A DNA stretch of 19,270 bases from a virus (taxonomy: Duplodnaviria > Heunggongvirae > Uroviricota > Caudoviricetes). The translations under genes were made by a program, and so were the position numbers. The first letter of the stretch is position 1. Every line of letters starts with the position of its first letter. The stretch covers positions 1-19,270 of IMG/VR virus record IMGVR_UViG_2648501186_000011. One strand, given 5' to 3'. The notes beneath the pieces were generated by a model. That model saw only the letters and a program-made list of their open reading frames with translations, was not told the DNA's origin and made no database searches. Of this stretch, positions 4,835 through 19,270 are shown one piece after another.

Positions 4835-4840
4835 GTTGGG

Positions 4841-6364: not shown

Positions 6365-6373
6365 TTTAAATCC

Positions 6374-6871: not shown

Positions 6872-6920
6872 AATTACCCCTTATTTAATTGTTATTGGAT
6901 TAACAATATTTAGGAGTAAA

Positions 6921-6940
6921 GCCGCCCCGCAGGACGGCAT
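6921..6940 (-). other. Hairpin immediately after the terminase large subunit stop
   Basis: Minus-strand RNA GCCGUCC-UGCG-GGGCGGC (7-bp stem with one G.U) followed by UUUACUCCU. The GCCCCGCAGG core recurs at 12944-12959. Confidence 0.4.
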
Positions 6941-6944
6941 GTGA

Positions 6945-8870
6945 TTAGAAGTTATTAACCCAGCTATTACGACGCACAGGACGCGCCATAGGACGACGAT
7001 TAGGCTTATTGTGAGGGATTGGCTTAGTTTCCTGTTTTTGCTCGTCAGAATGCGATTTAGGAGCTTCTACGGCGGTTTCTGTTTCACGGTTCAGCTTTTC
7101 TTTCAGTGCAATGAGTTTATCCCATGACATTTTTGAAAGAACATAGCGAGAAGCAGCCAGACAATACACAAAACAGTCGAGGCATTCGTTCCTCTGCGAT
7201 CCGGGATTTTTCACCCAACGTGTTCCGGTAGCGGTGCGCTTGATGGACTCACTAAGAAGCTGATCGAGATAGTCATCAGGAACGGTGTGTGATATCTCTA
7301 AGCCAATATGCGGATTATCCTTCAAGTTGCGTGTTAATAGCTCACGAACAGCGGTTTTACCGACGTTTACACCCAACATAAGCAATTCGTGACCACCCGT
7401 GGTAGTTGGCTTAACCGGAATCAGTGGAGCGTTACCGGAGGAACTCCCTTTAATGGCATGAAGATTTTTCCATTTGGTGCAAATGCGGTAGCCAGCTTGT
7501 GTAAATTTACCGTTCGAAGTATCAAGGAAACTAGCCAGAACAGGAACACGCTGGCCTGATACCGTGGTAAACCTGCTTTTCTGGAAGTTGATTAGCTTAT
7601 CCCATACAGGTGATTCGTATCTCTCACAGTTATAATCTCGGAAGACACGGTGATCGAGGATGTAAATCTTATCTTTCGCGATGCCTAGCATAGTTGACTC
7701 GACGCGATCCAACTGCTGGTCCACGCCAAATGTGGCGAAAATAACATCATCTGGGATATTTTCTACACAAACTTCGGTTTTCAGTTGTTCCAGTTCGTTG
7801 ACTTCTACCGCTGTTTCTGCGTCATCGTACACAGTGCCGAGAACTGTATTGTAAAAACTTTGTAAATCAAAGGTTTGCCACGCTTGCGAGAAGTCAGAAA
7901 CACATGATTTGATAGAGCTAAAAGGTGAATACAGACGGCTGATCCAGAATCCTGCTACATCACTTTCACGGGTAGCTCTCCATTCTCCTTGTGCAACCGC
8001 TCTAATGCGATCCCCTTCTGACCAATCACTCTGGCAATGAGGGCAAACATAACGGGCGCTTTCAACACATGGCAGATTGCGACCATCCTGATTTTTCCAC
8101 TCGAACTTAACATTTTCCCACTCGATCACCTGGTGTTTCCCGCAATGCGGACAAGGAACAAAGAATTTACGCTGATCACTTGATAACCATTGTTGATTAA
8201 TCGGTCCCAGCTTAGTGGTCGGGGTACTGGAAACGATAATTCTTGCTTCATCCCCGAAAGTGGTTGCGCGGTTAGCCGCAAGTGCAATCGGATCGCCCTC
8301 TTCACTAGCACTGGCAGCATCACATTCATCAAGCAGAATCAACGGGCTGGTTTTTGAACGCAAGGTTGATGGGCTAGTAAGCGATACCATGTAAAGAAAA
8401 TGATTAGTCTTAAGCTGAATCTGGCTATTGTTATTAACAGCGTTGCGATCATTCTTGTCGGTGATTGCTTCGCGTAATGCCGGACATGCTTCAATGGCTG
8501 GTCGGATCTTCCCGCTTAGGTACTGAGCGGTTTCCTTCGTGGTTGCTTGGCCTATGATGATATTGCTGGGATCGTTAGCTATCTTATTGAATAATATACC
8601 ATTAAGGATGGAAGTTTTGCCGATCTGGGCACTTGTACAAAAAATGTACTTTTTCTTATTCTCTAAGAAAGGAGCATCAATCATGCCTTTCTGAAAGCTG
8701 GTTAATTTAATTTTAGCGCCAGCTTGTGGTCCATCCACTAGGATCATGTTTTCCTCGCACCATTCAGATGGTAAACGCTTAATTGGCGGTCGGATATGTT
8801 TTGATACTTCGTTAAAAATTCGCTTGAGTTTAAATTTATTTGAGAGTTTTTTCACCGTGATTATCCTCAT
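6945..8870 (-). CDS. Terminase large subunit, lambda gpA family (641 aa)
   Basis: Similar in length to lambda gpA as I recall it. Walker A-like [10 protein letters not shown], Walker B-like [11 protein letters not shown], a Cys pair [13 protein letters not shown], and a C-terminal [16 protein letters not shown] that resembles the lambda gpA C-terminus (from memory). No SD before the ATG, and an in-frame stop 18 nt upstream excludes a longer N-terminus. Confidence 0.85.
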
Positions 8871-8925: not shown

Positions 8926-9531
8926 ATGCTAATTAATCAGCAACAAAGAGATGAATTAGAATTAGCATTTTCTTATTGTACCGGTCATGAATATCGTTTA
9001 CCAGTTAAGCACAAGCATTTAAAAACAGATATAACCACTTCTGGCTTTAGTCGTGATGAAGCGAAACAGATTTTAATCGAGTTGTATCGCGATCATGGGT
9101 ATACCGATATTCATAACTTCTTTAAGAAGCATCGCACATCACAGACAGAGTTCCAGAGAGTCCGTGAATGGTTTGATTTTGATATCAAGCGTTATTATCG
9201 AGTGGATGACGGTCCTATCTATCGGTTGCAGTGGACACCGATCAGGGAAGTGTTGAAACAGAAGAGATTGAATCATGCCATTACACGCTATCGTAACGAG
9301 GCTTTCAAGAAAGGCTATGGTGATACAAGGGAACTATTCGTTGAACTCGCTAACGTGAAATATAGCCACTATTACAACGATCCTACAGGGTTCTTCGAAG
9401 TGCTTCGCAAGGTTGATATTAGTCGGGGTACATATTATTCACGGCTGAGGAAGTACGGGATTAAGGCAGAGTTCTTTATGTCGGTTGACGACTCACCCAT
9501 GTTCAAGATAAAATCTAAGTCCTCTAAATAA
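8926..9531 (+). CDS. Hypothetical basic protein (201 aa) with C-terminal HTH-like motif
   Basis: ORF track; SD AAGGGGG 5 nt upstream. The C-terminal VDISRGTYYSRLRKYGIK resembles the recognition helix of the two small GRP-HTH proteins in this window. Confidence 0.6.
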   Translation: MLINQQQRDELELAFSYCTGHEYRLPVKHKHLKTDITTSGFSRDEAKQILIELYRDHGYTDIHNFFKKHRTSQTEFQRVREWFDFDIKRYYRVDDGPIYRLQWTPIREVLKQKRLNHAITRYRNEAFKKGYGDTRELFVELANVKYSHYYNDPTGFFEVLRKVDISRGTYYSRLRKYGIKAEFFMSVDDSPMFKIKSKSSK

Positions 9532-9566
9532 TATTGAGAAATCACTATTGTTTGGAGGAAACTACT

Positions 9567-9794
9567 ATGACTACTAAAGCTACTCGCGGTCGCCCTGCCC
9601 GTTTTACCCGTGAACAGATGGCTGATATTGCCTACGCTTACTATACAGCGGATCGCGGGAAGGAATCGAAAGAACAGATTCTTAGTGAACATGGGATTTC
9701 AGTAGCCCAATTCTATAAGAATATGAAGAAGTTAGACATTAAATTCTATGTTCAGATCGATGACGGTCAGATCGTAGAAGCAACAGGTTTTTGA
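9567..9794 (+). CDS. Small DNA-binding protein, GRP arm plus resolvase/Hin-type HTH (75 aa; start refined from 9534)
   Basis: ATG at 9567 has SD GGAGGA 7 nt upstream. The N-terminal TRGRPARFT is an AT-hook/Hin-like minor-groove arm and HGISVAQFYKNMKKL is a resolvase-type HTH. Paralogous to the 14077..14292 product. Confidence 0.6.
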   Translation: MTTKATRGRPARFTREQMADIAYAYYTADRGKESKEQILSEHGISVAQFYKNMKKLDIKFYVQIDDGQIVEATGF

Positions 9795-9809
9795 GTTTTG
9801 ATTCTCTTT

Positions 9810-9833
9810 GCCACTCTTCGGAGTGGCTTTTTT
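9810..9833 (+). terminator. Intrinsic terminator after the 8926-9794 module
   Basis: GCCACUC-UUCG-GAGUGGC followed by UUUUUU. Confidence 0.75.
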
Positions 9834-9877
9834 GTATATAAAACAATCTGAGCAAAACTGCGCACATCTCCATATAC

Positions 9878-9905
9878 AAAAAGCCCCACCATTACGGCAG
9901 GGCTT
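9878..9905 (-). terminator. Intrinsic terminator after the 214-aa gene
   Basis: Minus-strand RNA AGCCCUGCC-GUAAU-GGUGGGGCU followed by UUUUU. Closely related in sequence to the terminator at 2610-2635. Confidence 0.6.
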
Positions 9906-9909
9906 CTAA

Positions 9910-10554
9910 TCAGATTCCGAAGATAGCAAGGTCAATACAGTTTTCACTATCAAGCAAATCACCAGGACATTTCTTAGTCTTAGGCTTTCTAACACGCGTT
10001 TTAACGGCTTTAACCTTAATGGTCGTGGGGTTGGCTTCCTGTAACTTGATTTTCGCTCTCATGGCCTCGGCAGCAGCCATAATTTCTTCTTCTATTCTAT
10101 TTCTTTGTTCTTTCTCTCTTTGTGCTTGAAACAGTGCCAGCCTCATCCATTCTATCTTCTGGTGTTCTGGATCTGCATTAGCAAGAGCATCCTTCAAACG
10201 AAGATATTCAACCTTATCCGCATCACTCAAAGAATTATAGAAAGCAAGTTCTTTATTATTTCGTTGTTCTAGTTCCTCTTCCATACGGCGAATATCTTTG
10301 ACGATCATGTAAGCGATGTTAGCACTTAATCCCATCATGATAATCAACACGGATCGCTTTCCACCTCTACCTTCAAAGACATAATCACCATCGGTCTTAG
10401 TTGGCTTTTCTTTTAATGCATCCCAACATCTAAGCAATTCCTCTTCCGCCTTCTGATATGACACCTCACATACAACAGCAACCTCGCTTAAAAGCATAGA
10501 TTTAACGCTATCATCACGCATAGCACGGGTAATATCTTCAATAGTCAGATTCAT
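9910..10554 (-). CDS. Hypothetical protein (214 aa)
   Basis: ORF track; SD GAGGA 6 nt upstream. One moderately hydrophobic segment (SVLIIMMGLSANIAYMIV) and a charged coiled-coil-like C-terminal half. Confidence 0.6.
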   Translation of the reverse strand: MNLTIEDITRAMRDDSVKSMLLSEVAVVCEVSYQKAEEELLRCWDALKEKPTKTDGDYVFEGRGGKRSVLIIMMGLSANIAYMIVKDIRRMEEELEQRNNKELAFYNSLSDADKVEYLRLKDALANADPEHQKIEWMRLALFQAQREKEQRNRIEEEIMAAAEAMRAKIKLQEANPTTIKVKAVKTRVRKPKTKKCPGDLLDSENCIDLAIFGI

Positions 10555-10567
10555 AGTGTTCTATCCT

Positions 10568-10593
10568 CAATAAAAGCCCCATATTTCAGGGGC
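10568..10593 (-). terminator. Intergenic hairpin with U-tract between the Rha gene and the 214-aa gene
   Basis: Minus-strand RNA GCCCC-UGAAAUAU-GGGGC followed by UUUUAUUGAGGA, immediately before the SD of the next gene; more likely an attenuator than a full stop. Confidence 0.5.
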
Positions 10594-10607
10594 AAAATAA
10601 TAAAAAA

Positions 10608-11480
10608 TTAAATTCCAAAGTATTCCAGCGATCCGGCGTTCTTACGAATCAGTGCGGCAGTATTATTGACGATTGCACGAGCATTGTTAGGCTGCGGTAA
10701 TTTCAAAGTTGCTCGTTGTTCTTCTTCAATCAATCCCAATTTAACCAGCACAGGTAAACAGTCAGTTGTGAACTCAAGCTGACCATGTGCTGATTGTCGA
10801 GCGTACATGTAAGCAGGAGGAAGAACATCATAGCCGTTAGGCTTACCAGAAGCATCCAGACGACGCTCAATGTGTTTAGCCTCACATAACCCTTTCAGAA
10901 TGCGCTGTACCTTGCCAGAGCCTCGTTTTTCGCCCAATAAGCGGGTTAAGCTGTGTGCGTCAATGGCACGGCGAACATGGAGATCAACTAATTGTTGATT
11001 CTCGTGAAGCAATTGTTCTTTTTCTTCTTCAAGTTTAACCGCTTCGCGCATCCAGTCGAGCTTAGTCATCTTGCTTGCGTCTGGGAACGGATTAGCTTCT
11101 TTGTTTGCCAATTCTGTTAGTAAACGTGCGTTTTCCTCTTTCAGAATCTTCCATTCTTTAATTACACGATTACGAATCGGTGTGCTATATCCAGTGACAA
11201 GAGTCATGCAAAGTTCTTCGTTCAAATGGCATACCGGATCTTTAACAACAATACCTAAGCCATTGATTTTCTCCACAAGACCAAAATTGGACTCCTGCGG
11301 GATACCCAATTCTTTGTACATCACGCGAATGTCACGCAAAACATGTTTATGTTTCTTTCCGGTAAACTCGGCGATCTGGAAAGATGACATAGTTAATTCT
11401 TTTTCTACAGAGTCGTTTGCAGCAACCAGAGACACGGAAGCAGTTTTAACAGCAGTATTCATAGTAGTAACAGTATTCAT
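10608..11480 (-). CDS. Rha-family phage regulatory protein / antirepressor-like (290 aa)
   Basis: N-terminal FQIAEFTGKKHKHVLRDIRVMYKELGI matches the HxxVLRDI signature I associate with the Rha family. The start is ambiguous between M1 (11480, SD AAGGGG 10 nt upstream) and M7 because of an 18-bp tandem duplication. Confidence 0.65.
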   Translation of the reverse strand: MNTVTTMNTAVKTASVSLVAANDSVEKELTMSSFQIAEFTGKKHKHVLRDIRVMYKELGIPQESNFGLVEKINGLGIVVKDPVCHLNEELCMTLVTGYSTPIRNRVIKEWKILKEENARLLTELANKEANPFPDASKMTKLDWMREAVKLEEEKEQLLHENQQLVDLHVRRAIDAHSLTRLLGEKRGSGKVQRILKGLCEAKHIERRLDASGKPNGYDVLPPAYMYARQSAHGQLEFTTDCLPVLVKLGLIEEEQRATLKLPQPNNARAIVNNTAALIRKNAGSLEYFGI

Positions 11481-11522
11481 AGTAGTAATTCCCCTTTCGG
11501 TTTAGTGATATTGATCCTCCTA

Positions 11523-11554
11523 GTTCCGGCATCACCACCGGAACATTTTTATTT
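11523..11554 (+). terminator. Palindromic hairpin with plus-strand U-tract
   Basis: GTTCCGG-catcacca-CCGGAAC followed by ATTTTTATTT on the plus strand. Oriented to stop plus-strand (antisense) transcription entering the minus-strand operon. Confidence 0.45.
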
Positions 11555-11568
11555 ATGATAGAAATTTA

Positions 11569-11901
11569 TTACCAATCGATTTCTACTTGGTCTTCTTCAT
11601 AATAAGGAATCGCATATTCATAACGCCAATTTTCGATGATTTCACGTTCTTCATTAGTAAGAAGGTGATTGTTAACTGGAGTCGCATTGTGATTACCAGC
11701 TTCGAATTGCTCGCGAACTTCCAGCATTGCATGAATACCAGTTAAGGACATCAGATCAAACGGAACATGCATACTACGGGAGATAGTTTCACGGGATACG
11801 CCCCAATCATTTTCTACATGGCTAGGGGTTACAGAAACGGTTTTGCCGGAGATTTTAACAGTCCAGTCATACAGGGATTTAGTGATGGTAAATTCTTTCA
11901 T
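11569..11901 (-). CDS. Hypothetical protein (110 aa)
   Basis: ORF track; SD AGAGGA upstream; promoter-like sequence immediately upstream. Confidence 0.6.
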   Translation of the reverse strand: MKEFTITKSLYDWTVKISGKTVSVTPSHVENDWGVSRETISRSMHVPFDLMSLTGIHAMLEVREQFEAGNHNATPVNNHLLTNEEREIIENWRYEYAIPYYEEDQVEIDW

Positions 11902-11957
11902 GTTACATCCTCTTTACAAATCTAGGTCAAATAGGTTCAAAGTTGTCAAGTGCGATA

Positions 11958-11986
11958 ATCATAAAAAAGTTTGAAGATATTGTCAA
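11958..11986 (-). promoter_or_regulatory. Sigma70-like promoter: TTGACA, 17-nt spacer, TATGAT
   Basis: Read on the minus strand: -35 at plus 11981-11986, -10 at plus 11958-11963. The -35 overlaps the palindrome at 11980-12000. Confidence 0.6.
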
Positions 11987-12000
11987 ATACCCCTTGACAA
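11980..12000. promoter_or_regulatory. Operator-like palindrome TTGTCAA-N7-TTGACAA
   Basis: Perfect 7-bp inverted repeat with a 7-bp spacer. Further TTGTCAAG, GGTCAAA, GTTCAAA and GTTGACC half-site-like copies between 11923 and 12018. Confidence 0.5.
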
Positions 12001-12022
12001 GACGCCAAAGGGTTGACCTAAC

Positions 12023-12490
12023 TTACAGCATATCTAAGCCTTCATCGTAACCATAGAAGCCATTCTGAGAAGAGAAACAGATTGGAGCGTAGTCGTCGTC
12101 ATCTTCGTCTTGTTCATCGCGTTCTGGTGCTTTCTGAGCGGTTTCTTTGCCGTAGTTAAACATTGCTTCATCCAGTTCATAGACAGTAACGAAGCTACCC
12201 AGGTCAATGTCACCGGAACGGACTTCAAACGGAAGATCATCACGAACAATAATTGCTGGTAGATTCTGGTACTTTAAGCGTTCTTCATCGGTGAAGACGT
12301 TAACAACAATGGTCGGCTTCTTATTACGGCAAAACGCATACCATGCACTAGAGAAATGAGATTCATCAGAGTTGAAAAGAATGTTGTAACCACGTTCACG
12401 GAACATCTTCATTAACTTGTCATTGTGGAAGCTATCAGCATCAAAACCTAACAGGATGAAAGGAGTAGTGGTAGTCATTTTATGGTTCAT
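12023..12490 (-). CDS. Hypothetical acidic protein (155 aa)
   Basis: ORF track; SD AGAGGA 8 nt upstream. First gene leftward of the repeat hub. An inverted repeat AGTGAA-N9-TTCACT (12512-12532) lies in its leader. Confidence 0.6.
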   Translation of the reverse strand: MNHKMTTTTPFILLGFDADSFHNDKLMKMFRERGYNILFNSDESHFSSAWYAFCRNKKPTIVVNVFTDEERLKYQNLPAIIVRDDLPFEVRSGDIDLGSFVTVYELDEAMFNYGKETAQKAPERDEQDEDDDDYAPICFSSQNGFYGYDEGLDML

Positions 12491-12564
12491 AGTGGAAATC
12501 CTCTAAAAGAAAGTGAATCAAGTAAGTTCACTATTATTTATAAAGAGAAAATTCTTGTTATTAT

Positions 12565-12882
12565 GAAAAGAGTGATCTGGTAGAGTCCAAAACTGGTCTG
12601 TACTTGAAAGGTGATTGGATTCAGTCGGGCTAAAGCCCTCCTTCATAGATTTTGATTAAATCATCACCAAAACGAAGAAGTATCTTTAGAATATAAGAAT
12701 CTTTCTTTTGAAGAAATAATAATAATCAAACAAGATGGACGCTCCCTGAGCGTCTGCGAAGCATATCTAATTCCTTCCAGTATCATCAAAGTGATCTAGA
12801 ATCAGTTTGTAATCATTATCTTCAAAGTGATTGTAATATCTTTATCTTGAAAGTGATTATAACTACCTTCTTCAAAGTGATC
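12565..12882. repeat. Direct-repeat family (A/T)TCTTSAAAGTGAT, four good and two degenerate copies
   Basis: Cores at 12787-12795, 12823-12831, 12849-12857 and 12873-12881 spaced 24-36 bp; degenerate copies near 12565-12577 and 12603-12616. Confidence 0.7.
12738..12754. other. Perfect palindrome GACGCTC-cct-GAGCGTC
   Basis: 7-bp inverted repeat with a 3-nt spacer in non-coding DNA. Confidence 0.4.
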
Positions 12883-12943
12883 TTGAATCATCATGTAAAC
12901 CAGATTAAAATCCCTTCCTGAATGATTTCAAAACAGATTACTC

Positions 12944-12959
12944 GCGCCCCGCAGGGCGC
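12944..12959 (+). other. Hairpin GCGCCC-CGCA-GGGCGC followed by a T-rich stretch
   Basis: 6-bp stem then ATAATATTCTTTTCTTTT on the plus strand; terminator-like, sharing the GCCCCGCAGG core with 6921-6940. Confidence 0.4.
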
Positions 12960-13074
12960 ATAATATTCTTTTCTTTTATCTACAATCTCTTTCATACCAA
13001 CTCTTTACTATTAACTATTACATATTACATATGACACCCTTCTAAGCCTTGTCCTGTCTGGGTTTCCGTGATTT

Positions 13075-13166
13075 TTGTACATCCTTGTACATCGTAGTAC
13101 ATGTGTTGTACATCCTTGTACATCCTTGTACACGTCACGTACATAGATGTACATCCTTGTACATCT
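13075..13166. repeat. Helically phased array of nine TTGTACATCC-type repeats
   Basis: GTACA begins at 13077, 13087, 13097, 13108, 13118, 13128, 13139, 13149 and 13159, a 10-11 bp period, so every copy is on one face of the helix. Confidence 0.8.
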
Positions 13167-13249
13167 AGGTTAAAAACCAATCAAAAATAGCCATAAAATC
13201 ACCATTTTGAGGGTGTATTTGCTCAATATTTCATCGTGTTTTTGTGATT

Positions 13250-13322
13250 CTGTACAGCAAATCTGTGTCTTGTACACCTTGTACATCTAATACATGTCTT
13301 GTACACCTTGTACATCTAATAC
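13250..13322. repeat. Second TGTACA cluster with two ~28-bp direct repeats
   Basis: gtcttgtacaccttgtacatctaatac occurs twice (about 13267-13293 and 13296-13322). GTACA at 13252, 13272, 13281, 13301 and 13310. Confidence 0.75.
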
Positions 13323-13495
13323 CGGGGAATAGCCCCCCTAATACCGGGGGATTTGTGGATACTAATACCGGGGAAAAAAAACCTAATACCGGGGGATTTT
13401 TATGTGGATGAATGATGGCCTAATCCGGGGGATTCTCTTACAGGACGGTTATCATTTACCCCCTAATACCGGGGAAATTAACCTAATCCGGGGGA
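13316..13495. repeat. Seven iteron-like direct repeats CTAAT(A)CCGGGG(G)A with DnaA-box-like motifs
   Basis: Copies start at 13316, 13338, 13362, 13383, 13420, 13463 and 13483, mostly 20-24 bp apart. TGTGGATAc (13353-13361) and TGTGGATGA (13403-13411) resemble the DnaA box TGTGGATAA. An AT-rich stretch follows at 13540-13640. Confidence 0.75.
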
Positions 13496-13643
13496 TTTTT
13501 GCTTCCAAAACGGGGATATCGCGGGGAAACCCTTAAATTCATTCAAATATTTTGATAGAAAATTCTTGTATATTATTTAACCAAAAAATCATCAAAAATC
13601 GCTGTAGCTTAATGATTTAAAAGGAATTTTCAAAAGGTCACCG

Positions 13644-13652
13644 TGCTATAAT
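13644..13652 (+). promoter_or_regulatory. Possible extended -10 promoter element (TGcTATAAT)
   Basis: TATAAT at 13647-13652 with TG at 13644-13645; only a weak -35 (TTTTCA region). Confidence 0.35.
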
Positions 13653-13732
13653 AGGTTATAAAGGTTGATAATCATTATTCGCCATTTTCACACAAAAATT
13701 TTGATAGTCTTTTCTCGCTTAGGTCAAGGGTA

Positions 13733-13761
13733 TTGACATCTGTCAAGGATTATTTTATGCT
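13733..13761 (+). promoter_or_regulatory. Sigma70-like promoter TTGACA, 17-nt spacer, TATGCT, with overlapping palindrome
   Basis: -35 at 13733-13738, -10 at 13756-13761. The palindrome TTGACA-tc-TGTCAA (13733-13746) recalls the 11980-12000 operator-like site. Confidence 0.5.
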
Positions 13762-13942
13762 TTTTCTCGTTGGTAGGGGTTGAAATTTTCAAAACAATCC
13801 CCATATAGATGATAAGCAAGATTTTCTCGCTACTAAATACATGTGAGCGATGATTATGACTCACTGACCTGAAAAGCTGAAACAGCATAAAATTCTAAAA
13901 AATGCGGTTTTCAGTTTTTCAAAAAGGGGTACAGGAGTCAGA

Positions 13943-13984
13943 ATGATTAAAAAATCGCCAGATAATATTCTGTCTATAGCGTAA
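13943..13984 (+). other. 13-codon mini-ORF (MIKKSPDNILSIA) with a strong SD
   Basis: AGGAG (13932-13936) 6 nt before the ATG at 13943; stop at 13982-13984. It is followed about 35 nt later by the terminator hairpin at 14021-14041, a leader-peptide-like arrangement. Confidence 0.35.
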
Positions 13985-14020
13985 AACTAAGCGCATTACA
14001 GAATAATATAAATATCATCG

Positions 14021-14041
14021 AGAGCGGTTAACGCTCTTTTT
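14021..14041 (+). terminator. Intrinsic terminator/attenuator upstream of the first rightward gene
   Basis: AGAGCG-GUUAA-CGCUCU followed by UUUUU, 20 nt upstream of the SD for the 14077 gene. Confidence 0.6.
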
Positions 14042-14076
14042 AATAAGAAAGATTTGTCTCTTAAGGGGAAGAAACT

Positions 14077-14292
14077 ATGAAAAACTCAATCATGGGGCGT
14101 CCGGTTAAAATCACCGAAGAAAAATACAAAGAAATCCTGATTGCTTACCACTCACAAGTTAATGCAACGAATGCTGATCGTGATGCACTTCTGGCAAAAT
14201 ATGGAATTACTCGCCGGACGTTTTCAAGGCTAGCTCATCGTTACCCAAATGTGAAAGTCGTAACTAAAGTGGTGAATGTAGAAATAGCATAA
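14077..14292 (+). CDS. Small DNA-binding protein, GRP arm plus resolvase/Hin-type HTH (71 aa)
   Basis: SD AAGGGG 8 nt upstream. MGRPVKIT...LLAKYGITRRTFSRLAHRY is paralogous to the 9567..9794 product. Confidence 0.65.
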   Translation: MKNSIMGRPVKITEEKYKEILIAYHSQVNATNADRDALLAKYGITRRTFSRLAHRYPNVKVVTKVVNVEIA

Positions 14293-14327
14293 ATCGCTTA
14301 CTGAGAATTACATTATGAAACTTTTAA

Positions 14328-14363
14328 CCAATAAAAAAGCCCCCTTGCGGCAACAAGGAGGCT
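14328..14363 (-). terminator. Strong hairpin with U-tract, oriented for the minus strand, between two plus-strand genes
   Basis: Minus-strand RNA AGCCUCCUUG-UUGCCG-CAAGGGGGCU (10-bp stem with one G.U) followed by UUUUUUAUU. On the plus strand the A-tract precedes the hairpin, so it may work bidirectionally. Confidence 0.5.
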
Positions 14364-14396
14364 TGAAATGAAGATTTGATACGGAGATAAAAAGAA

Positions 14397-15512
14397 ATGT
14401 CTAACAAGAATAACACTTCAATTGTATTTATTAACTTCAAAAACGACGAAAGCATTCTGAGCAACAATGAACAGATCGTGATGAAAGATTGTGGTGAAAA
14501 TGTCACTACCGTTTTCAAAGAAACTGCAAACACTCTAACCGAACTGGTTGCTAAAGTTCGCGGATATGGTGCTGTTCGTAAAGCTGAGTTTGAGATGGTT
14601 CAAAACTATACCCGCTCTGTTACGGTTGGCGACAAGAAATATAACAAAAACACACATAAGCTGATCGCTAATGATGAAATCAAACTGGTACAGATTTGCA
14701 CTACCGACAAAAACGCTATTTTCTTGTTGGTTGTTCTTGAAAATGAAGCTGGTTTACGTCGCGGTGTTCTGCGTCACCGTTCCATGCGTAATGAAGCTGG
14801 TGTGATTGGTTCTAAAATCCATAACCGCGCATACACTTCTACTTCCAACTGGATCATTGCTGGCGAGAACGAAGGTAAAACAGGCGAGACTTTCAACATT
14901 GCTTTCTTCTCTGCTTTTGACGAAAAGAAACATGTTAAATGGAAACTGAATAATGAAGCCGTAGAAGCTCCTGTGCGCGATTCTGAGAAACAATCTGTTG
15001 AAATCGATGAATCCCACATCATGGCTATGATTCGCGGCGTAGAGAAGCGTTTACGTGATGAATTTAACGCTAAACTTGAAGCTAAAGACAAAGAGATCGC
15101 GGAACTGAAAGCACGTTTAGAAGCAGTAGAAATCAAGACTATTGACACTACTGAAAATCCTGTTTCTAAAGACGTTGTTGCTGATCTGCAATGCGAGATC
15201 CAGATCGCCAGCGACTTCCAGAAAGCAACCAACAAACTCAATGCAAAATTAGAGCGTCGTGATAATGGTCAGCGTCTGTCTGGTGATGATATTCAGGTTA
15301 TTCTGCGCGGTGATATGAAAGAGATTAATGCTAAGTTTGCACCGAAAGGTGTTTTTGCTAGCAAGATTAACGAAGCCCAGGTCGATGAATTGATGCACGC
15401 GTTAGAAGCAGACACCAACGAGACTGTTAAAGCCGCTAATGATGACGTTGCGGCATCTGCAATCGTTTCTGACGAATATTTGAAAGAATTAGATGCACTT
15501 TTGGCTATGTAA
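14397..15512 (+). CDS. Hypothetical protein A (371 aa): N-terminal globular domain plus C-terminal coiled-coil-like region
   Basis: ORF track; SD GGAG 10 nt upstream. The C-terminal half is rich in charged, heptad-like sequence (KLEAKDKEIAELKARLEAVE). No recognisable family. Confidence 0.7.
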   Translation: MSNKNNTSIVFINFKNDESILSNNEQIVMKDCGENVTTVFKETANTLTELVAKVRGYGAVRKAEFEMVQNYTRSVTVGDKKYNKNTHKLIANDEIKLVQICTTDKNAIFLLVVLENEAGLRRGVLRHRSMRNEAGVIGSKIHNRAYTSTSNWIIAGENEGKTGETFNIAFFSAFDEKKHVKWKLNNEAVEAPVRDSEKQSVEIDESHIMAMIRGVEKRLRDEFNAKLEAKDKEIAELKARLEAVEIKTIDTTENPVSKDVVADLQCEIQIASDFQKATNKLNAKLERRDNGQRLSGDDIQVILRGDMKEINAKFAPKGVFASKINEAQVDELMHALEADTNETVKAANDDVAASAIVSDEYLKELDALLAM

Positions 15513-15539
15513 TTTTAATTTTTAAGAGGAATAACGATT

Positions 15540-16631
15540 ATGAAGACTTACACCGACATTACCAACAAACAATTTTCTACCGCTGATCATTCGGTGGTTA
15601 GGCTTGCTATCTGGTCAGATATGAAATTTACCTTTAAATTTGGGTGTAAAGGATTTAAGATTAATTTTTCAGTTGACCACGTATTACCGGACCGCGCTGA
15701 TGACCTGATTAAGATTTTGCGTTATCGTGGCTATGGCCTAACCAATGGTGAGTTAACCATGATCTACAGCTTCGTTAATAAATCCGGTGATATGCTTGTT
15801 CGTAATATTACTGGTTATGAAATTAACGGTAAAAAAGGTGTTGCTATGACCGTTGTTGGTCGTGGTGGTATGGTTGCCGTTTATACATTCGGGTATAGCG
15901 CATTTTATAGCAAGAAAAATGATTACTATTATGGCAAGCGCACTAAACTAGATCATTACGGTCGTTATAGCCTGGGTGTTGCGGCTAAATATGAAAGTTG
16001 TATTGTTCTTAAAGATTCGATTCATGGTGAATTTGAAATCATGTCACAATACGACAAAACGCCTTATGACTACTACCGTGTAAAAGTTAAAGTACCGAAA
16101 GTGTTAGAGCCTCACGAATCTCATGTTGAATGCCGTGCTAAAACAATTAAAAAACTGCGTGATGAGAATGACCAGCTTTCTACGCGTCTAAGCAAGTTAA
16201 AAACCAAAGTACGAGATAAACGTAATCGTCACACTATCGAAGAACGTAAAGCTGCATACGATGAATACGTGGTTACTTTAAAGAAACGTGATGCTTTGCG
16301 TGAGTATTTTTGCAAAATCGATGCGATGTGCGCTGGTCGTTTGTACAGAGGAAAGAATGTGGCTGCGGTGAGTTTTGAGGAAATGGCAGAATTAACGCCT
16401 ATCAAGGAAGAGATTCAACTACCGAATGAAAAGGTTGCTTTGGTTAACGAAAAACGTAAACTAGTTGAAAAGGTGGCACAGGTGGATAAAGAGATTAAAA
16501 CTAGCGAAGGAATGGTTAAAGAGGCGTACATCGCTTTGCGTGATTCCTTAGAGATTCAAATCAAGCATATTGACCTTGAGATCTTGAAACTGTCCATGCC
16601 TAACCGCCCTACTCTACGTCTTGTTGCTTAA
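15540..16631 (+). CDS. Hypothetical protein B (363 aa): aromatic-rich N-terminal domain plus basic coiled-coil-like C-terminus
   Basis: ORF track; SD AAGAGGA upstream; 27 nt after gene A, so probably co-transcribed. Ends at the strong terminator at 16644-16676. Confidence 0.7.
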   Translation: MKTYTDITNKQFSTADHSVVRLAIWSDMKFTFKFGCKGFKINFSVDHVLPDRADDLIKILRYRGYGLTNGELTMIYSFVNKSGDMLVRNITGYEINGKKGVAMTVVGRGGMVAVYTFGYSAFYSKKNDYYYGKRTKLDHYGRYSLGVAAKYESCIVLKDSIHGEFEIMSQYDKTPYDYYRVKVKVPKVLEPHESHVECRAKTIKKLRDENDQLSTRLSKLKTKVRDKRNRHTIEERKAAYDEYVVTLKKRDALREYFCKIDAMCAGRLYRGKNVAAVSFEEMAELTPIKEEIQLPNEKVALVNEKRKLVEKVAQVDKEIKTSEGMVKEAYIALRDSLEIQIKHIDLEILKLSMPNRPTLRLVA

Positions 16632-16643
16632 GACAATAAAAAA

Positions 16644-16676
16644 GGGAGTCCCCGACGAAAGAGACTCCCTTTTGAT
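16644..16676 (+). terminator. Intrinsic terminator after the A/B operon
   Basis: GGGAGUC-(12-nt loop)-GACUCCC followed by UUUUGAUUU. Confidence 0.75.
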
Positions 16677-16747
16677 TTAGGATCAACACAACAAACAAAT
16701 TAAGGATTCTAAGGAAATTATAATGAACACTACCGTTACATTATTCT

Positions 16748-16782
16748 TTAAAGCCAGAAAATAACCGCCCCCTTCGGGGCGG
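16748..16782 (-). terminator. Intrinsic terminator downstream of the 92-aa membrane-protein gene
   Basis: Minus-strand RNA CCGCCCC-GAAG-GGGGCGG followed by UUAUUUUCUGGCUUU. Confidence 0.6.
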
Positions 16783-16939
16783 GAGGATTAACACTAATCT
16801 ATACTTGTTATGTTTTTATGATGTATAGACCATCGACTATGAAAACACTGTACTGTATGTGTTTTTATGGCTTTTAATCGGGAATCCTCAAAGAAGACCC
16901 CCTGTTAATAACCATAAGGAGAAAAGGCAGATTACATTA

Positions 16940-17218
16940 TTATTTAGTATCCTTGTTACTTAACACAAGAAACACCAGATAAAACAGAATCAGGATAAAG
17001 CACGTTTTACCAAATCCTTCGGGGTTAACATCAAACAGAATCATAGAGATTAACGCTACCACAAAACTAATCGCTTCGATGATAACTACGATAGCAGAAT
17101 ACCCGATAAACGCGCCTAAGAATAATTCGTACTTCTCTTTATTACTGTCAGAAAGACCGTAAGCGGTAATCATGGAAAGCGCGGTAATGATTACGAGATA
17201 AGTCAGAAAAATAGTCAT
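16940..17218 (-). CDS. Small membrane protein (92 aa, about three predicted TM segments)
   Basis: Three hydrophobic stretches (FLTYLVIITALSMITAYGL, LGAFIGYSAIVVIIEAISFVVALISMILF, CFILILFYLVFLVL) and a short polar C-terminus. SD AGAGG upstream. Holin-like or exclusion-protein-like in shape only. Confidence 0.6.
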   Translation of the reverse strand: MTIFLTYLVIITALSMITAYGLSDSNKEKYELFLGAFIGYSAIVVIIEAISFVVALISMILFDVNPEGFGKTCFILILFYLVFLVLSNKDTK

Positions 17219-17250
17219 TTGTATTTTGCCTCTAGTTAGACAAACATCCT

Positions 17251-17296
17251 CAAAAAATCAAATCAGAAAAATTGGGAGGGGAGCATCTAACTCCCC
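17251..17296 (-). terminator. Intrinsic terminator after the small terminase gene
   Basis: Minus-strand RNA GGGGAG-UUAGAUG-CUCCCC followed by a U-rich tract (AAUUUUUCUGAUUUGAUUUUUUG). Confidence 0.6.
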
Positions 17297-17348
17297 TTAG
17301 ACGTTGACCCGTTCAACATCTTTCTCACTATTATTTAGTATCTAATTT

Positions 17349-17906
17349 TTACGACACATCAAATTCATCGTCTTCTTGTTCTTCTTCCGGTTCTTCCTGC
17401 TTCACTTCCTCATCTTCTGAGTATTCATCGTAGGCATCAAGATCCGGTGAAATCATAATATCCCCGATCTCATTCAAACGAGCGGAAATGATATCCTTCA
17501 ATGTTTCTTTCAAAGTACGCTGATCCGTTGCAGCTTCCATAATTTTTAGAGTGTCTACCGTCGCCACCTGCATCATGGTCTGGCGTACATCACCACAAAA
17601 TCCGGCTAGAACTGTTTCTACATAACCTACAGGAATCAGATCATTTAGTTCGGTGCGGTTCTTAAGTTCGATGGCATCGGCCTCGCCTCTCGCCTTTCTT
17701 AATCGTTCTTGTTGGATCTGCGCTTGTACATCCACTTCCCTAAGTGGGTTAATGATGTTCTCAAGCACCCAGGCGATCGCTCTATCCCGTGGACAACGGC
17801 GGGTATTCGTATTATACGGAAGACCACGATCACGCCATTTCTGAACAGCCGGAAGGGAATACCCATACATTTTAGATAATTCGGTTAAAGTTACTTCTTG
17901 CGTCAT
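17349..17906 (-). CDS. Terminase small subunit, lambda Nu1 family (186 aa; start refined from 17981)
   Basis: ATG at 17904-17906 has SD AGAGGA 7 nt upstream; the ORF-track start has none. N-terminal HTH LTELSKMYGYSLPAVQKWRDRGLPY and central ERLRKARGEADAIELKN...VETVLAGFCGDV parallel lambda Nu1 as I recall it. Acidic C-terminal tail. Confidence 0.65.
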   Translation of the reverse strand: MTQEVTLTELSKMYGYSLPAVQKWRDRGLPYNTNTRRCPRDRAIAWVLENIINPLREVDVQAQIQQERLRKARGEADAIELKNRTELNDLIPVGYVETVLAGFCGDVRQTMMQVATVDTLKIMEAATDQRTLKETLKDIISARLNEIGDIMISPDLDAYDEYSEDEEVKQEEPEEEQEDDEFDVS

Positions 17907-18214
17907 GAAACTATCCTCTGAGCTAAAAATATGCGTAATTGTATTTAGACGAAATACGCAATATAACGGCCTATAACGCAATTTAAGAAAATCCCATGTG
18001 ACGGGGCGTTGAGAAGTGATTTAGCTCGTTGTAGGGCTTGTTTGGTGGCTTAACTAAACCAATTTGAAAAAGGCACAAGCGAGATTTAAACCGCGCCGGG
18101 CAAAACACGCCCTCTTTTGCCACCTATCACAGTACCTTTTTGTTGTCAAGTCTTTTTTATCGAATATTTTAAATTTTTTCATCTTTTTTCTCGTGCATTC
18201 ATCCGTTTTTTTCT

Positions 18215-18283
18215 CGGTCAAAATCAATGACTTGACCAGTTGACACTGATCCGGTCATCAATATAATCGGTCACACTTTGACC
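18215..18283. promoter_or_regulatory. Cluster of CGGTCA / TGACC half-sites around the lipoprotein promoter
   Basis: CGGTCA at 18215, 18252 and 18268; TTGACC at 18232 and 18278. Includes the palindrome GGTCA-cactt-TGACC (18269-18283) just downstream of the -10. Confidence 0.45.
18240..18267 (+). promoter_or_regulatory. Near-consensus sigma70 promoter TTGACA, 16-nt spacer, TATAAT
   Basis: -35 TTGACA at 18240-18245 and -10 TATAAT at 18262-18267, about 115 nt upstream of the lipoprotein start codon. Confidence 0.7.
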
Positions 18284-18383
18284 ATGTAAGGTGTGTTTCG
18301 GATGTGAGGATTAACGATAGATATTTACATAAATAAAGATGTGGTTAATCCATTCATCAATTTAATTCTCTGGAGGATATTCT

Positions 18384-18956
18384 ATGTTTAAAAAGATTGG
18401 TGTTATTGCTGCGGTTGTTCTGTTATCTGGTTGTGCGTCTATGGCTGAACTTGAAAAGCGTAGTGATGGTCTTTCGGCTTATCCTGGCATCAAGTATGAA
18501 CAGTTTCAGGGGTATGAGATTGTAAGTAGCTATACAACTACAAAGGCAACTCGCCCATATAACAAACTTAAAATGCAATCCTGTCTCTATGACACTGTGC
18601 GTAATGACATTATGGTGCATACTGACGCATTCAATGAGATTAAAGATTTAGAAGCTGGTGGTCGTATTGTTGAACGCGCCCGTTCTAATAGTGCTATTTT
18701 TAGTGGCAACTTCGAGCAAACTATTACCTTGCGTACTATTGTAGGTGACACTCCCTATACTCAATATGTGAAGTATAAAGGTATTGCTTTACCGTCCGGT
18801 GATAAGACACAGTTCACATTTACCGGATTGAGTGTTAAGCCTAAATCTGGTGGCGAGCATCCACTATGGTCACGTAAAACAAATAGCCCAGAAGAAAGTA
18901 TTAAAGAACTTGATAAGCTGGCGGATGAGATTGCCGATTGTCTTAATGATGAATAA
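18384..18956 (+). CDS. Lipoprotein (190 aa), candidate superinfection-exclusion factor
   Basis: Signal peptide with lipobox MFKKIGVIAAVVLLSG|C. SD GGAGGA 6 nt upstream. Exclusion role is by analogy only. Confidence 0.75.
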   Translation: MFKKIGVIAAVVLLSGCASMAELEKRSDGLSAYPGIKYEQFQGYEIVSSYTTTKATRPYNKLKMQSCLYDTVRNDIMVHTDAFNEIKDLEAGGRIVERARSNSAIFSGNFEQTITLRTIVGDTPYTQYVKYKGIALPSGDKTQFTFTGLSVKPKSGGEHPLWSRKTNSPEESIKELDKLADEIADCLNDE

Positions 18957-18973
18957 AGAATAACTGATTATAT

Positions 18974-18999
18974 AGCCTCGCTAAATGCGGGGCTTTTTT
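18974..18999 (+). terminator. Intrinsic terminator after the lipoprotein gene
   Basis: AGCCUCGC-UAAAU-GCGGGGCU (one G.U) followed by UUUUUU. Confidence 0.75.
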
Positions 19000-19039
19000 G
19001 TGTCTAAATACCATCAAGTTAATTGATGAGGAACACGAC

Positions 19040-19270
19040 ATGACCAAAGAAGAATTTTTGAAGCTGTCCGTTAAAGAGCAGAAGTCACTGGTTAATGACA
19101 TGCTTAATGAGCGTGGCTGGAAGGTGGTTGAAACAGAAGAGTATGGAACTGATTGGCATCAACGGATCATGATCATCAATACTGGTGGTGATGAATGGCG
19201 TGATTGGTGTCTTCGTACTGTTACCCCGCTTTCCCTTGTTACTGGCGTTGGCTTTCTGGAAAGAGAGTAA
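19040..19270 (+). CDS. Hypothetical protein (76 aa; start refined from 18998)
   Basis: ATG at 19040 has SD GAGGAA 6 nt upstream; the ORF-track start overlaps the preceding terminator. Stop is the last codon of the window. Confidence 0.5.
   Translation: MTKEEFLKLSVKEQKSLVNDMLNERGWKVVETEEYGTDWHQRIMIINTGGDEWRDWCLRTVTPLSLVTGVGFLERE

What the first reader, a model, noticed from the sequence alone, without database searches (positions are those of the whole stretch)
12491..14076. 1.6-kb non-coding hub with three repeat families and DnaA-box-like motifs, between divergent operons
The longest gap in the window holds a 4-6 copy AAAGTGAT family, a phased TGTACA array, and seven ~14-bp iterons at roughly 21-bp spacing interleaved with two DnaA-box-like 9-mers and followed by AT-rich DNA. 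That is the grammar of an iteron-type replication origin, or alternatively a centromere or packaging site, yet no Rep or ParA/ParM-like gene is recognisable next to it. The element, and whichever adjacent protein binds it, may be undescribed.
Basis: partly seen in the sequence, partly recalled or inferred. Interest (0 to 1): 0.8.

Follow-up and report, generated by a model that had tools for sequence, protein, structure and literature searches.

The report
Prophage control hub with protein-matched repeat arrays
The 1.6-kb gene-free stretch is the early-control region of an uncharacterised E. coli/Shigella prophage; its repeat arrays change together with a neighbouring protein of no known family, so they are most likely that protein's binding sites at the phage's replication origin, though replication itself was not shown.

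Summary
The three repeat families are real, non-random and confined to the gap. The DnaA-box-like 9-mers are no more than chance would give.

The window is the right arm of a ~37-kb chromosomal prophage with a large serine recombinase and a lambda-type terminase. It has no close relative among deposited phages or plasmids.

I compared about 30 related prophage loci. All keep a 1.3-1.7-kb ORF-free hub with the same layout: a conserved left part with hairpins, lineage-specific repeat arrays, a nearly invariant 78%-AT block, two strong promoters, and a structured leader with tandem terminators. A small HTH gene, orphan protein A and sometimes orphan protein B follow.

Eight repeat motifs pair one-to-one with eight A lineages. 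The small HTH protein, the small terminase TerS, p110, p155 and p201 do not follow the repeats.

Best reading, at confidence 0.45: the arrays are A's binding sites in a self-regulated lytic replication origin. The main rival is a set of operator arrays in a lysis-lysogeny switch. A packaging site is disfavoured and a centromere is unlikely.

A and B match no known family by sequence or predicted fold. Which protein binds the window's CTAATACCGGGG array is unresolved.

The parts
12023..12490 (-). p155, first gene of the leftward operon (followed by p110, a Rha/Ant-like protein and p214). It is an acidic-tailed orphan that is often truncated in relatives.
   Evidence: Conserved across array types, so it does not set array specificity.
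12491..12960 (.). Conserved left part of the hub. It holds the likely leftward promoter and 5' UTR, and three GC hairpins at 12627-12638, 12738-12754 (terminator-like on the minus strand) and 12944-12959.
   Evidence: About 92% identical in the TO6-type prophage even though the arrays differ. Terminator scan. The minus-strand RNA fold has z = -3.6.
12783..12881 (+). AAAGTGAT family. Four copies of TC(W)WSAAAGTGAT at 12788, 12824, 12850 and 12874, lying between two hairpins.
   Evidence: Conserved in types 1 and 2 and partly in the other types. Its binding protein or RNA role is unknown.
13076..13163 (+). TGTACA array, block 1. Nine (N)GTACA sites with a 10.25-bp period; extended unit CCTTGTACATC.
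   Evidence: The same core motif fills the hub of Salmonella locus L033, whose protein A is 71% identical to the window's.
13170..13199 (+). Promoter-like site P0 (TTAAAA-18-TAAAAT) in the 85-bp spacer between the two TGTACA blocks.
   Evidence: It is a consensus match only. By eye, a similar TATAAA(A)T-like element follows the phased array in L035, L036 and TO6.
13251..13314 (+). TGTACA array, block 2. Two copies of a 29-bp unit (TGTCTTGTACACCTTGTACATCTAATACA); the copy number varies from 1 to 6 in near-identical relatives.
13316..13497 (+). Seven direct CTAAT(A)CCGGGG(G/A)A iterons, each followed by an A/T tract.
   Evidence: Copy number runs from 1 to about 8 in relatives that carry an identical protein A. 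Two copies are also present in the type-2 (TO6) array.
13510..13527 (+). Two type-2-style units, ACGGGGAT and CGCGGGGA, at the right end of the array.
   Evidence: Identical to the TO6 (L011) array end; blast identity 94%.
13543..13640 (.). Nearly invariant AT-rich block (77.6% AT) directly abutting the arrays. It contains TTTTGATAG (13550-13558; a second copy lies at 13699-13707) and TTTAACCAAAA. It is the candidate DNA-unwinding element.
   Evidence: In the seven-locus alignment nearly every column from the start of this block (13543) to the end of the conserved stretch (13855) is invariant.
13644..13652 (+). Promoter P1, with an extended -10 element TGCTATAAT.
   Evidence: Read directly from the sequence. 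Invariant in relatives. It was used as the anchor pattern that recovered 13 further loci.
13710..13829 (+). Three TTTTCTCG motifs at 13710, 13762 and 13822. Two more lie at 18186 and 18209, upstream of another promoter.
   Evidence: 5 copies, all on the + strand, and 0 of 200 shuffles reached that number.
13733..13761 (+). Promoter P2 (TTGACA-17-TATGCT). Its -35 hexamer lies within the palindrome TTGACATCTGTCAA.
   Evidence: 10 of 12 consensus positions. Conserved in all lineages, including the distant L035 and L036.
13768..14048 (+). Structured leader RNA. It has a 5' hairpin, a terminator-like hairpin with a U run (13877-13919), a long hairpin (13962-14009) and an intrinsic terminator (14021-14041) just before the small HTH gene.
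   Evidence: Minimum free energy -79.9 kcal/mol against -50.4 +/- 4.5 for shuffles, z = -6.6. The commoner leader allele in relatives has three terminator hairpins, with substitutions that keep G-U pairing on the + strand.
13856..14300 (+). Allelic cassette. It carries the 3' two-thirds of the leader and the small GRP-HTH gene (14077-14292; a 71-aa allele here, a 60-aa allele elsewhere).
   Evidence: The cassette swaps independently of array type and of protein A type.
14397..15512 (+). Protein A (371 aa). It has a beta-rich N-terminal domain, a coiled coil and an acidic tail. It is the candidate array-binding protein.
   Evidence: No hit in Pfam, PHROG, NCBIfam, PADLOC or PDB sequences. Only 3 to 7 relatives were found in billions of proteins. 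Its lineages pair one-to-one with the array motifs.
15540..16631 (+). Protein B (363 aa). It is optional in the family. All B proteins seen end in the invariant peptide RP(T/V)LRLVA.
   Evidence: Absent from types 3 and 6 and from L035 and L036, which still carry arrays.

Best explanation
The hub is the divergent early-control region of a temperate prophage. Its repeat arrays are the cognate binding sites of the adjacent, fast-diverging orphan protein A.

Most likely the arrays, together with the abutting invariant AT-rich block, form the phage's lytic replication origin, with A as the origin-binding initiator.

Proposed mechanism (all steps inferred):
1. A coats the 10-bp-phased TGTACA array and occupies the more widely spaced sites.
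2. This distorts or melts the neighbouring 78%-AT block, helped by transcription from P0, P1 and P2 running through it.
3. A recruits the host replisome. B, where present, acts as an accessory adaptor through its invariant C-terminal peptide.
4. Because the arrays sit upstream of A's own operon, A also regulates its own synthesis.
5. The strong promoters followed by two or three terminators keep A and B off in the lysogen.

What is shown: the repeats, the architecture conserved across the family, the one-to-one pairing of motif and A lineage, and the structured leader with terminators.

What is inferred: DNA binding by A, the origin function, and the role of B.
For: Pairing of motif and A lineage. 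27 loci fall into 6 clusters of protein A, and each cluster has its own dominant repeat. Three further lineages add TGTACA (A 71% identical to the window's, same core motif), ACACATCGCAAAC and ACTAG(A/T)AA.

This is not plain linkage. The small-HTH cassette that lies between the arrays and the A gene recombines freely, while the arrays and A stay matched.

Other proteins fail the test:
- TerS: locus L023 has type-2 arrays but the window-type TerS at 98% identity, and types 2, 3 and 6 share TerS at 84-96%.
- p110, p155 and p201 are conserved across array types.
- Arrays exist in lineages that lack B.

Origin-like layout:
- In the E. coli lineages (types 1-4 and 6) the arrays next to the conserved block are direct repeats in one orientation; in the Salmonella locus L018 and in L035 some of the dispersed sites are inverted.
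- Spacings are one or two helical turns.
- The arrays end directly at a conserved 78%-AT block.
- The cumulative GC skew reaches its minimum at 13.0-13.5 kb.

The promoters nearest the arrays (P0, P1, P2) belong to A's own operon. In L033 and L035, A-type sites also sit at P2 or in the leader. This self-contained autoregulation is what a replicon module looks like.

Two or three terminators ahead of the operon suit a function that must stay off in the lysogen.

No other replication protein is recognisable anywhere in a complete ~37-kb family member.
Against: - No experiment or read-depth data were available. A matches no initiator family, and its predicted fold gave no significant match (model pLDDT about 62).
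- No conserved DnaA boxes are present, and GATC is depleted in the hub rather than clustered.
- In the window itself, the array next to the AT-rich block is CTAATACCGGGG. That array is partly shared with the type-2 lineage, whose A is only 25% identical. The TGTACA sites that track this A lineage lie 230 bp or more from the block.
- Locus L009 has lost all but one CTAATACCGGGG copy while keeping an identical A.
- No repressor has been identified in this phage either, so A could be that repressor.
- Extreme diversification of a DNA-binding specificity among near-identical phages is also typical of immunity regions.
Confidence: 0.45

Rival explanations
1. The arrays are operator or enhancer sites of a lysis-lysogeny switch. 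A (perhaps with B) would be a lineage-specific transcription regulator, repressor or activator, and the eight specificities would be heteroimmunity types. Helically phased sites would allow cooperative filament or loop formation over P0, P1 and P2.
For: - The hub sits between divergent operons and is dense with promoters, a palindromic -35 operator and other shared motifs.
- No CI-like repressor was found anywhere in the prophage.
- Immunity determinants are the classic hypervariable cassettes among otherwise near-identical phages (my own background knowledge).
- A-type sites lie at P2 or in the leader in L033 and L035.
- A and B have C-terminal tails resembling ssrA-type degradation tags (xAA and LVA), which would suit unstable regulators. 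This is a resemblance only and was not tested.
Against: - In the E. coli lineages the arrays end about 100 bp upstream of P1 and do not overlap P1 or P2, which lie in the type-invariant block.
- The arrays lie about 500 bp from the leftward promoter, with hairpin terminators in between.
- A sits behind two or three intrinsic terminators, an odd place for a maintenance repressor.
- The only promoters the arrays could plausibly control belong to A's own operon.
Confidence: 0.3
2. The 10-bp-phased TGTACA arrays flanking a promoter form a parC-like centromere, bound by an adaptor protein that drives segregation of an extrachromosomal form of the phage.
For: - The form resembles plasmid R1 parC: two blocks of phased direct repeats (9 and 5 sites) around a promoter-like site.
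- A and B have long coiled coils.
Against: - Every family member seen is integrated in the chromosome through a serine recombinase. All 61 matching places in E. coli genomes were chromosomal and none was on a plasmid.
- No ParA, ParM or TubZ-like NTPase and no ribbon-helix-helix ParR-like protein was detected by sequence or fold.
- A has no homologue on plasmids.
Confidence: 0.05
3. The arrays are the cos or pac recognition region (like lambda cosB), bound by the small terminase.
For: - The phage has a lambda gpA-type large terminase and a Nu1-like TerS.
- TerS and TerL are split, lying on either side of the hub.
Against: - TerS type does not follow array type.
- terS lies 3.3 kb away and has its own 400-bp upstream intergenic region.
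- Array copy number varies freely between near-identical relatives.
Confidence: 0.03
4. The repeats are explained by small proteins or by an sRNA gene rather than by protein-binding DNA.
For: - 13768-14048 does encode a highly structured leader RNA (z = -6.6).
- The left part of the hub also folds better than shuffled sequence (z = -3.6).
Against: - The arrays lie outside the leader.
- Their copy number changes in steps of 10 bp and 29 bp, and the motifs are replaced wholesale between lineages.
- The hub ORFs are not conserved, and the one recurrent antisense ORF has stops or frameshifts in L014, L015 and L026.
- No Rfam family matched.
Confidence: 0.05

Closest known systems
Iteron-type origins with a cognate initiator (plasmids P1 oriR/RepA, F, pSC101, R6K; phage lambda ori/O). 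Comparison from my own background knowledge.
   Same: - Direct repeats in one orientation at about two-turn spacing, each followed by an A/T tract.
- The array abuts an AT-rich region.
- The specificity partner is encoded next door and is probably self-regulated.
- Specificity is swapped as a matched pair of protein and sites, as with the O/ori types of lambdoid phages.
   Different: - The protein matches no Rep_3, RepA, TrfA or phage-O family.
- No conserved DnaA boxes are present.
- The origin would lie about 0.9 kb upstream of the gene, not inside it as in lambda.
- There is an extra 10-11-bp phased array.
- The initiator candidate carries a central coiled coil.
Plasmid R1 parC / ParR (type II partition centromere). 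From my own background knowledge.
   Same: Two blocks of roughly 10-11-bp helically phased direct repeats flanking a promoter-like site. This geometry suits a continuous protein filament along one face of the DNA.
   Different: - No ParM-like ATPase and no small ribbon-helix-helix adaptor is present.
- The element is an integrated prophage.
- The motif is a 6-bp palindrome inside an 11-bp unit.
Epstein-Barr virus oriP (family of repeats plus dyad-symmetry element) with EBNA1. An analogy from my own background knowledge.
   Same: One sequence-specific protein would serve two site clusters: a dense tandem array and a looser cluster beside the initiation zone. This is seen most clearly in L018, L035 and L036.
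   Different: There is no homology, the host domain of life differs, and the function here is untested.
Phage P4 immunity leader (PLE, CI RNA, premature termination ahead of the replication gene alpha, whose product binds the ori/crr iterons). From my own background knowledge.
   Same: A strong constitutive-looking promoter is followed by a structured leader with several terminators, ahead of genes whose product would bind nearby iterons.
   Different: - There is no Rfam C4/CI match.
- No complementary seqA/seqB/seqC-type repeats were found.
- A is not a primase-helicase.

Membership tests
Iteron-type replication origin (plasmid Rep / lambda O class) | Three or more direct repeats of about 17-22 bp, in one orientation, at roughly two-turn spacing | tested here: met
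   Seven CTAAT(A)CCGGGG(G/A)A units, all on the + strand, at spacings 22, 24, 21, 37, 43 and 20. Equivalent arrays are present in all related lineages.
Iteron-type replication origin (plasmid Rep / lambda O class) | An adjacent AT-rich DNA-unwinding region | tested here: inconclusive
   13543-13640 is 77.6% AT, abuts the array and is nearly invariant. Unwinding itself cannot be tested here, and the block also lies upstream of promoter P1.
Iteron-type replication origin (plasmid Rep / lambda O class) | Host DnaA boxes at the origin | tested here: not met
   Only 8/9 matches at chance frequency: 9 in the window against 5.2 expected. They are not conserved in other lineages.
Iteron-type replication origin (plasmid Rep / lambda O class) | A cognate initiator from a known Rep or O family encoded nearby | tested here: not met
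   A and B have no hit in Pfam, PHROG, NCBIfam or PDB sequences. Fold searches gave nothing significant. A protein that covaries with the arrays does exist.
Iteron-type replication origin (plasmid Rep / lambda O class) | The fragment supports autonomous, initiator-dependent replication | not testable with these tools
   This needs cloning or marker-frequency experiments.
Type II partition centromere (parC/ParR/ParM) | Phased 10-11-bp direct repeats in two blocks around the par promoter | tested here: met
   TGTACA blocks of 9 and 5 sites with a 10.25-bp period, and a promoter-like site at 13170-13199 between them. This is a match of form only.
Type II partition centromere (parC/ParR/ParM) | An adjacent actin-like ATPase and a small ribbon-helix-helix adaptor, on an extrachromosomal replicon | tested here: not met
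   No such domains or folds were found. All copies seen are integrated in the chromosome.
Lambda-type cosB / terminase recognition site | Repeated sites recognised by the phage's own TerS, next to terS | tested here: not met
   TerS type is uncoupled from array type. terS lies 3.3 kb away.
P4/P1-type immunity RNA (Rfam C4 family) | Match to the covariance model | tested here: not met
   No Rfam match at E <= 1 across 9000-19270, apart from one chance-level RsmY hit elsewhere in that stretch.

The most novel reading that the evidence does not exclude
Protein A founds an undescribed family of phage origin-binding initiators, or master regulators. The family would have at least eight orthogonal DNA specificities. 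Each protein would be matched to its own 6-13-bp motif, laid out as a helically phased tandem array plus looser sites next to a shared AT-rich core. That would be a bipartite site layout not described for bacterial viruses, with a second orphan protein (B) that docks onto a conserved partner through the invariant C-terminal peptide RPTLRLVA.
Probability: 0.3. Interest if true: 0.75.

Novelty: new variant of a known kind. Interest (0 to 1): 0.55.

Why it matters
If A is an initiator, this would be a new replication-module family in enterobacterial prophages. These prophages occur in E. coli, Shigella and Salmonella, and one copy sits beside an mcr-1 transposon.

The family would also offer a natural set of eight or more orthogonal protein/DNA-site pairs. 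These could be used to study how DNA-binding specificity changes step by step, or as synthetic-biology parts.

If A is instead the switch regulator, the hub would define an unrecognised immunity system in a phage that lacks any CI-like repressor.

Either way, the result shows that roughly 10 kb of 'hypothetical' early genes in this prophage lineage are organised around a single hub that can be tested directly.

Tried and rejected
- Megablast of the hub against phage and plasmid collections found nothing. tblastn of A and B against phages, and of A against plasmids, also found nothing.
- Searches of Pfam, PHROGs, NCBIfam, PADLOC and PDB sequences with A and B found nothing above threshold. The only hints are a sub-threshold winged-helix match in A residues 46-113 (E = 0.1) and weak HTH_7 and HTH_23 matches in the small proteins.
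- A and B are not detectably related to each other by hhalign.
- 'B binds the phased array' was rejected. L035 and L036 have phased arrays but no B, and L015 has B but no phased array.
- 'p110 binds the GGGG-core repeats' was rejected. p110 is 98-100% identical in types 1-3, which carry different motifs.
- The exact-pattern scan of one representative genome per species found nothing.
- The nearest deposited phage record, DCP80 (TerL 46% identical), looks like a chimeric assembly and was not informative.
- Two literature searches found no description of this prophage.
- The recurrent antisense ORF at 13724-13888 was rejected as a gene: it has stops or frameshifts in L014, L015 and L026, and no ribosome-binding site.
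Full report
WHAT THE WINDOW IS

Genes at 1040-8870 on the minus strand encode, in gene order from 8870 down to 1040, a lambda gpA-type large terminase, a lambda-family portal, a protease-capsid fusion and tail proteins. A Nu1-like small terminase lies apart from them at 17349-17906 on the minus strand.

Exact-protein look-ups and E. coli genome searches place the window in a chromosomal prophage of about 37 kb. It is bounded by a large serine recombinase and is inserted next to or into hicB, or into ycdX.

The lineage is rare: 29 of 5426 complete E. coli genomes carry it, one copy each. It has no close relative among deposited phages. The best large-terminase match is 46% identical, in a record that looks chimeric.

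No CI-like repressor and no known replication protein is recognisable anywhere in a complete family member.

CHECKING THE OBSERVATION

The gap 12491-14076 is real and is flanked by divergent genes. The three repeat families fared as follows.
- TGTACA: 12 of the window's 17 sites lie in 13076-13314, against 4.1 expected for the whole window, and 0 of 200 shuffles reached 17. Block 1 holds nine sites at spacings 10,10,11,10,10,11,10,10, so they sit on one face of the helix for about nine turns.
- CTAAT(A)CCGGGG: seven copies, all on the + strand, all between 13316 and 13494, against 0.12 expected. Four of the six spacings are 20-24 bp.
- AAAGTGAT: four copies within 94 bp.

The stretch after the arrays, 13543-13640, is 77.6% AT.

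The DnaA-box-like 9-mers do not hold up. They are 8/9 matches at chance frequency (9 in the window against 5.2 expected), and they are missing from the other lineages.

ORFs inside the hub are not conserved. No Rfam family or tRNA is present.

COMPARATIVE ANATOMY

I assembled about 30 related loci from exact-protein look-ups, E. coli genomes and an IMG/VR pattern scan. All of them keep a 1.3-1.7-kb ORF-free hub with the same order of parts:
1. A conserved left part with GC hairpins and AAAGTGAT/CTAGAATCAG-type repeats.
2. Repeat arrays specific to each lineage.
3. A nearly invariant block. In the window this is 13543-13855. It begins with the AT-rich stretch and carries an extended -10 promoter (TGCTATAAT, 13644-13652), a second promoter whose -35 lies in the palindrome TTGACATCTGTCAA (13733-13761), two TTTTGATAG motifs and three TTTTCTCG motifs.
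4. A structured leader with two or three terminator hairpins.
5. A small GRP-HTH gene.
6. Orphan protein A.
7. Orphan protein B, in some lineages only.

WHICH PROTEIN GOES WITH THE REPEATS

Clustering the A proteins of 27 loci gives six clusters, and each has its own dominant repeat:
- A371: TGTACA and CTAATACCGGGG.
- A337: (A/C)GGGGAT.
- A313-319: TTTCAGGGGCAAAA.
- A320: TGGAATCTTGGGGAT.
- A350: GTTATAGGACA.
- A331-339: TAGTGTAGGTTT.

Three further lineages extend the series:
- A338: ACACATCGCAAAC.
- A328: ACTAG(A/T)AA.
- A Salmonella protein A that is 71% identical to the window's. Its hub is filled with TGTACA and has no CTAATACCGGGG at all.

The A lineages are less than 62% identical to one another, and often undetectable to each other by BLAST. 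The DNA flanking them is 90-100% identical.

Other proteins do not follow the repeats:
- Small HTH protein. The cassette carrying it lies between the arrays and the A gene. Type-1 arrays occur with either the 71-aa or the 60-aa allele. An 84%-identical copy of the 71-aa allele sits beside GTTATAGGACA arrays.
- TerS. L023 combines type-2 arrays with the window-type TerS, and types 2, 3 and 6 share TerS at 84-96% identity.
- p110, p155 and p201 are conserved across array types.
- B is absent from four lineages that still have arrays, including 11-bp-phased ones.

The arrays and A stay matched even though recombination is evident between them. This points to functional coupling rather than simple linkage.

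A COMPLICATION IN THIS WINDOW

This window has two array families. TGTACA follows the A371/A366 lineage.

The CTAATACCGGGG array is homologous to part of the type-2 (TO6) array. The region 13470-13517 is 94% identical to TO6, the terminal ACGGGGAT and CGCGGGGA units are identical, and TO6 carries two CTAAT(A)CCGGGG copies. Its copy number ranges from 1 to about 8 among prophages with an identical A.

The binding protein of this array is therefore unresolved. It could be A371 recognising a second motif, B363, or nothing at all if the array is a recombinational relic.

WHAT A AND B ARE

Neither protein matches Pfam, PHROGs, NCBIfam, PADLOC or PDB sequences. Searches of billions of proteins return only 3 to 7 relatives, all from this prophage family.

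The AlphaFold models are of modest quality (pLDDT about 62). Both show a beta-alpha-alpha-beta-hairpin N-terminal domain, which could be a winged helix, followed by a long coiled coil. Fold searches gave nothing significant.

Most A proteins end in an acidic amphipathic tail with a terminal pair of alanines. Every B protein ends in RP(T/V)LRLVA. These tails recall ssrA-type ClpXP degradation tags or a docking peptide for a host protein. That is a lead from memory and was not tested.

THE LEADER

The RNA from 13768 to 14048 folds to -79.9 kcal/mol, against -50.4 +/- 4.5 for shuffled sequence (z = -6.6). It ends in an intrinsic terminator at 14021-14041, with another terminator-like hairpin at 13877-13919.

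The commoner leader allele in relatives is highly conserved and has three terminator hairpins. Its substitutions keep G-U pairing on the + strand, but there is little true covariation.

So the rightmost ~280 nt of the 'non-coding hub' is a regulatory leader, not origin DNA.

INTERPRETATION

The arrays being A's binding sites is well supported by the covariation; I put it at about 0.75.

For the function, I favour a self-regulated lytic origin, at 0.45, for these reasons:
- In the E. coli lineages the arrays next to the conserved block are direct repeats in helical phase, and they end exactly at a conserved AT-rich block. In L018 and L035 some of the dispersed sites are inverted.
- The only promoters the arrays could plausibly control belong to A's own operon.
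- That operon sits behind tandem terminators, as expected for a function that must be off in the lysogen.
- The phage has no other candidate initiator.
- The cumulative GC skew reaches its minimum here. Divergent transcription would produce the same minimum, so this point is weak.

The main rival, at 0.30, is that A is the missing switch regulator and the eight specificities are immunity types. Both roles could coexist.

A centromere (0.05) and a packaging site (0.03) are disfavoured, as set out above.

COMPARISON WITH KNOWN SYSTEMS

The hub works like an iteron origin with a neighbouring initiator, as in plasmid P1, plasmid F or phage lambda. It fails membership on the protein-family test and the DnaA-box test.

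The TGTACA arrays look like plasmid R1 parC, but the partition proteins are missing.

The promoter-leader-terminator arrangement recalls the P4 immunity leader, but there is no homology.

I therefore rate the hub as a new variant of a known kind, built on protein families that have not been described.

Noticed in passing
window 13710-13829 and 18186-18216: TTTTCTCG occurs five times in the window, always on the + strand. It is found only around promoter P2 of the hub and upstream of the promoter of the lipoprotein-like gene at 18384. None of 200 shuffles reached five copies. It is probably the site of a shared regulator that has not been identified.
   Followed up: partly
window 15540-16631 (B) and 14397-15512 (A); homologues in L011, L015, L018, L033: All B proteins, which share only 20-40% identity, end in the invariant octapeptide RP(T/V)LRLVA. 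Most A proteins end in an acidic amphipathic tail with a terminal AA (LAA, FAA, KAA or EAA). These tails resemble ssrA-type degradation tags or a docking motif for a conserved partner.
   Followed up: partly
window 6945-8870 and 17349-17906: The large terminase and the Nu1-like small terminase are separated by 8.5 kb, which includes the whole early region. terS has its own divergent 400-bp promoter region. The cos site was not located.
   Followed up: no
window 13856-14300: The 3' part of the leader and the small HTH gene form an allelic cassette (71-aa or 60-aa allele) with sharp recombination boundaries. It is shuffled independently of the arrays and of protein A.
   Followed up: yes
window 8926-9794 and 14077-14292: Three proteins share the same small motif of 'GRP' followed by a resolvase-like HTH: the C-terminus of p201, p75 and the 71-aa protein. 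They look like paralogous regulators on both sides of the early region.
   Followed up: no
L014 (E. coli PE15, NZ_CP041628.1) 9060-13172: In this strain an ISApl1-mcr-1-pap2 composite transposon is inserted in the prophage immediately downstream of its protein A gene.
   Followed up: no
L001/L002 (Escherichia phage DCP80, PQ671644.1): The closest deposited phage record is labelled as a T4-like virus. It combines T4-like genes with a block encoding a lambda-type terminase, portal and capsid related to this prophage, so it is probably a chimeric assembly.
   Followed up: partly
L039 (IMGVR_UViG_3300002182_000141) 150-310: An unrelated metagenomic viral contig carries the same 17-mer, TGTACATCCTTGTACAT, twice near a TGCTATAAT promoter. 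TGTACA-N4-TGTACA may be a recurring operator type.
   Followed up: no
window 12491-14076: GATC is depleted in the hub: 3 sites against about 8 expected from the window's density of 98 sites in 19.3 kb. This is the opposite of the GATC clustering seen at oriC-type origins.
   Followed up: no
window 12023-12490; L007, L008, L011: The p155 gene next to the hub is truncated to 46-69 codons in several relatives, so it is dispensable. Its acidic tail and its position as the first gene of the operon suggest an accessory gene, possibly an anti-defence one.
   Followed up: no
window 12944-12959: The loop and closing base pair of this hairpin are inverted between relatives (CCGCAG in some, CTGCGG in others) while the stem is kept. 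The hairpins in this region carry UNCG-like loops in several lineages.
   Followed up: no
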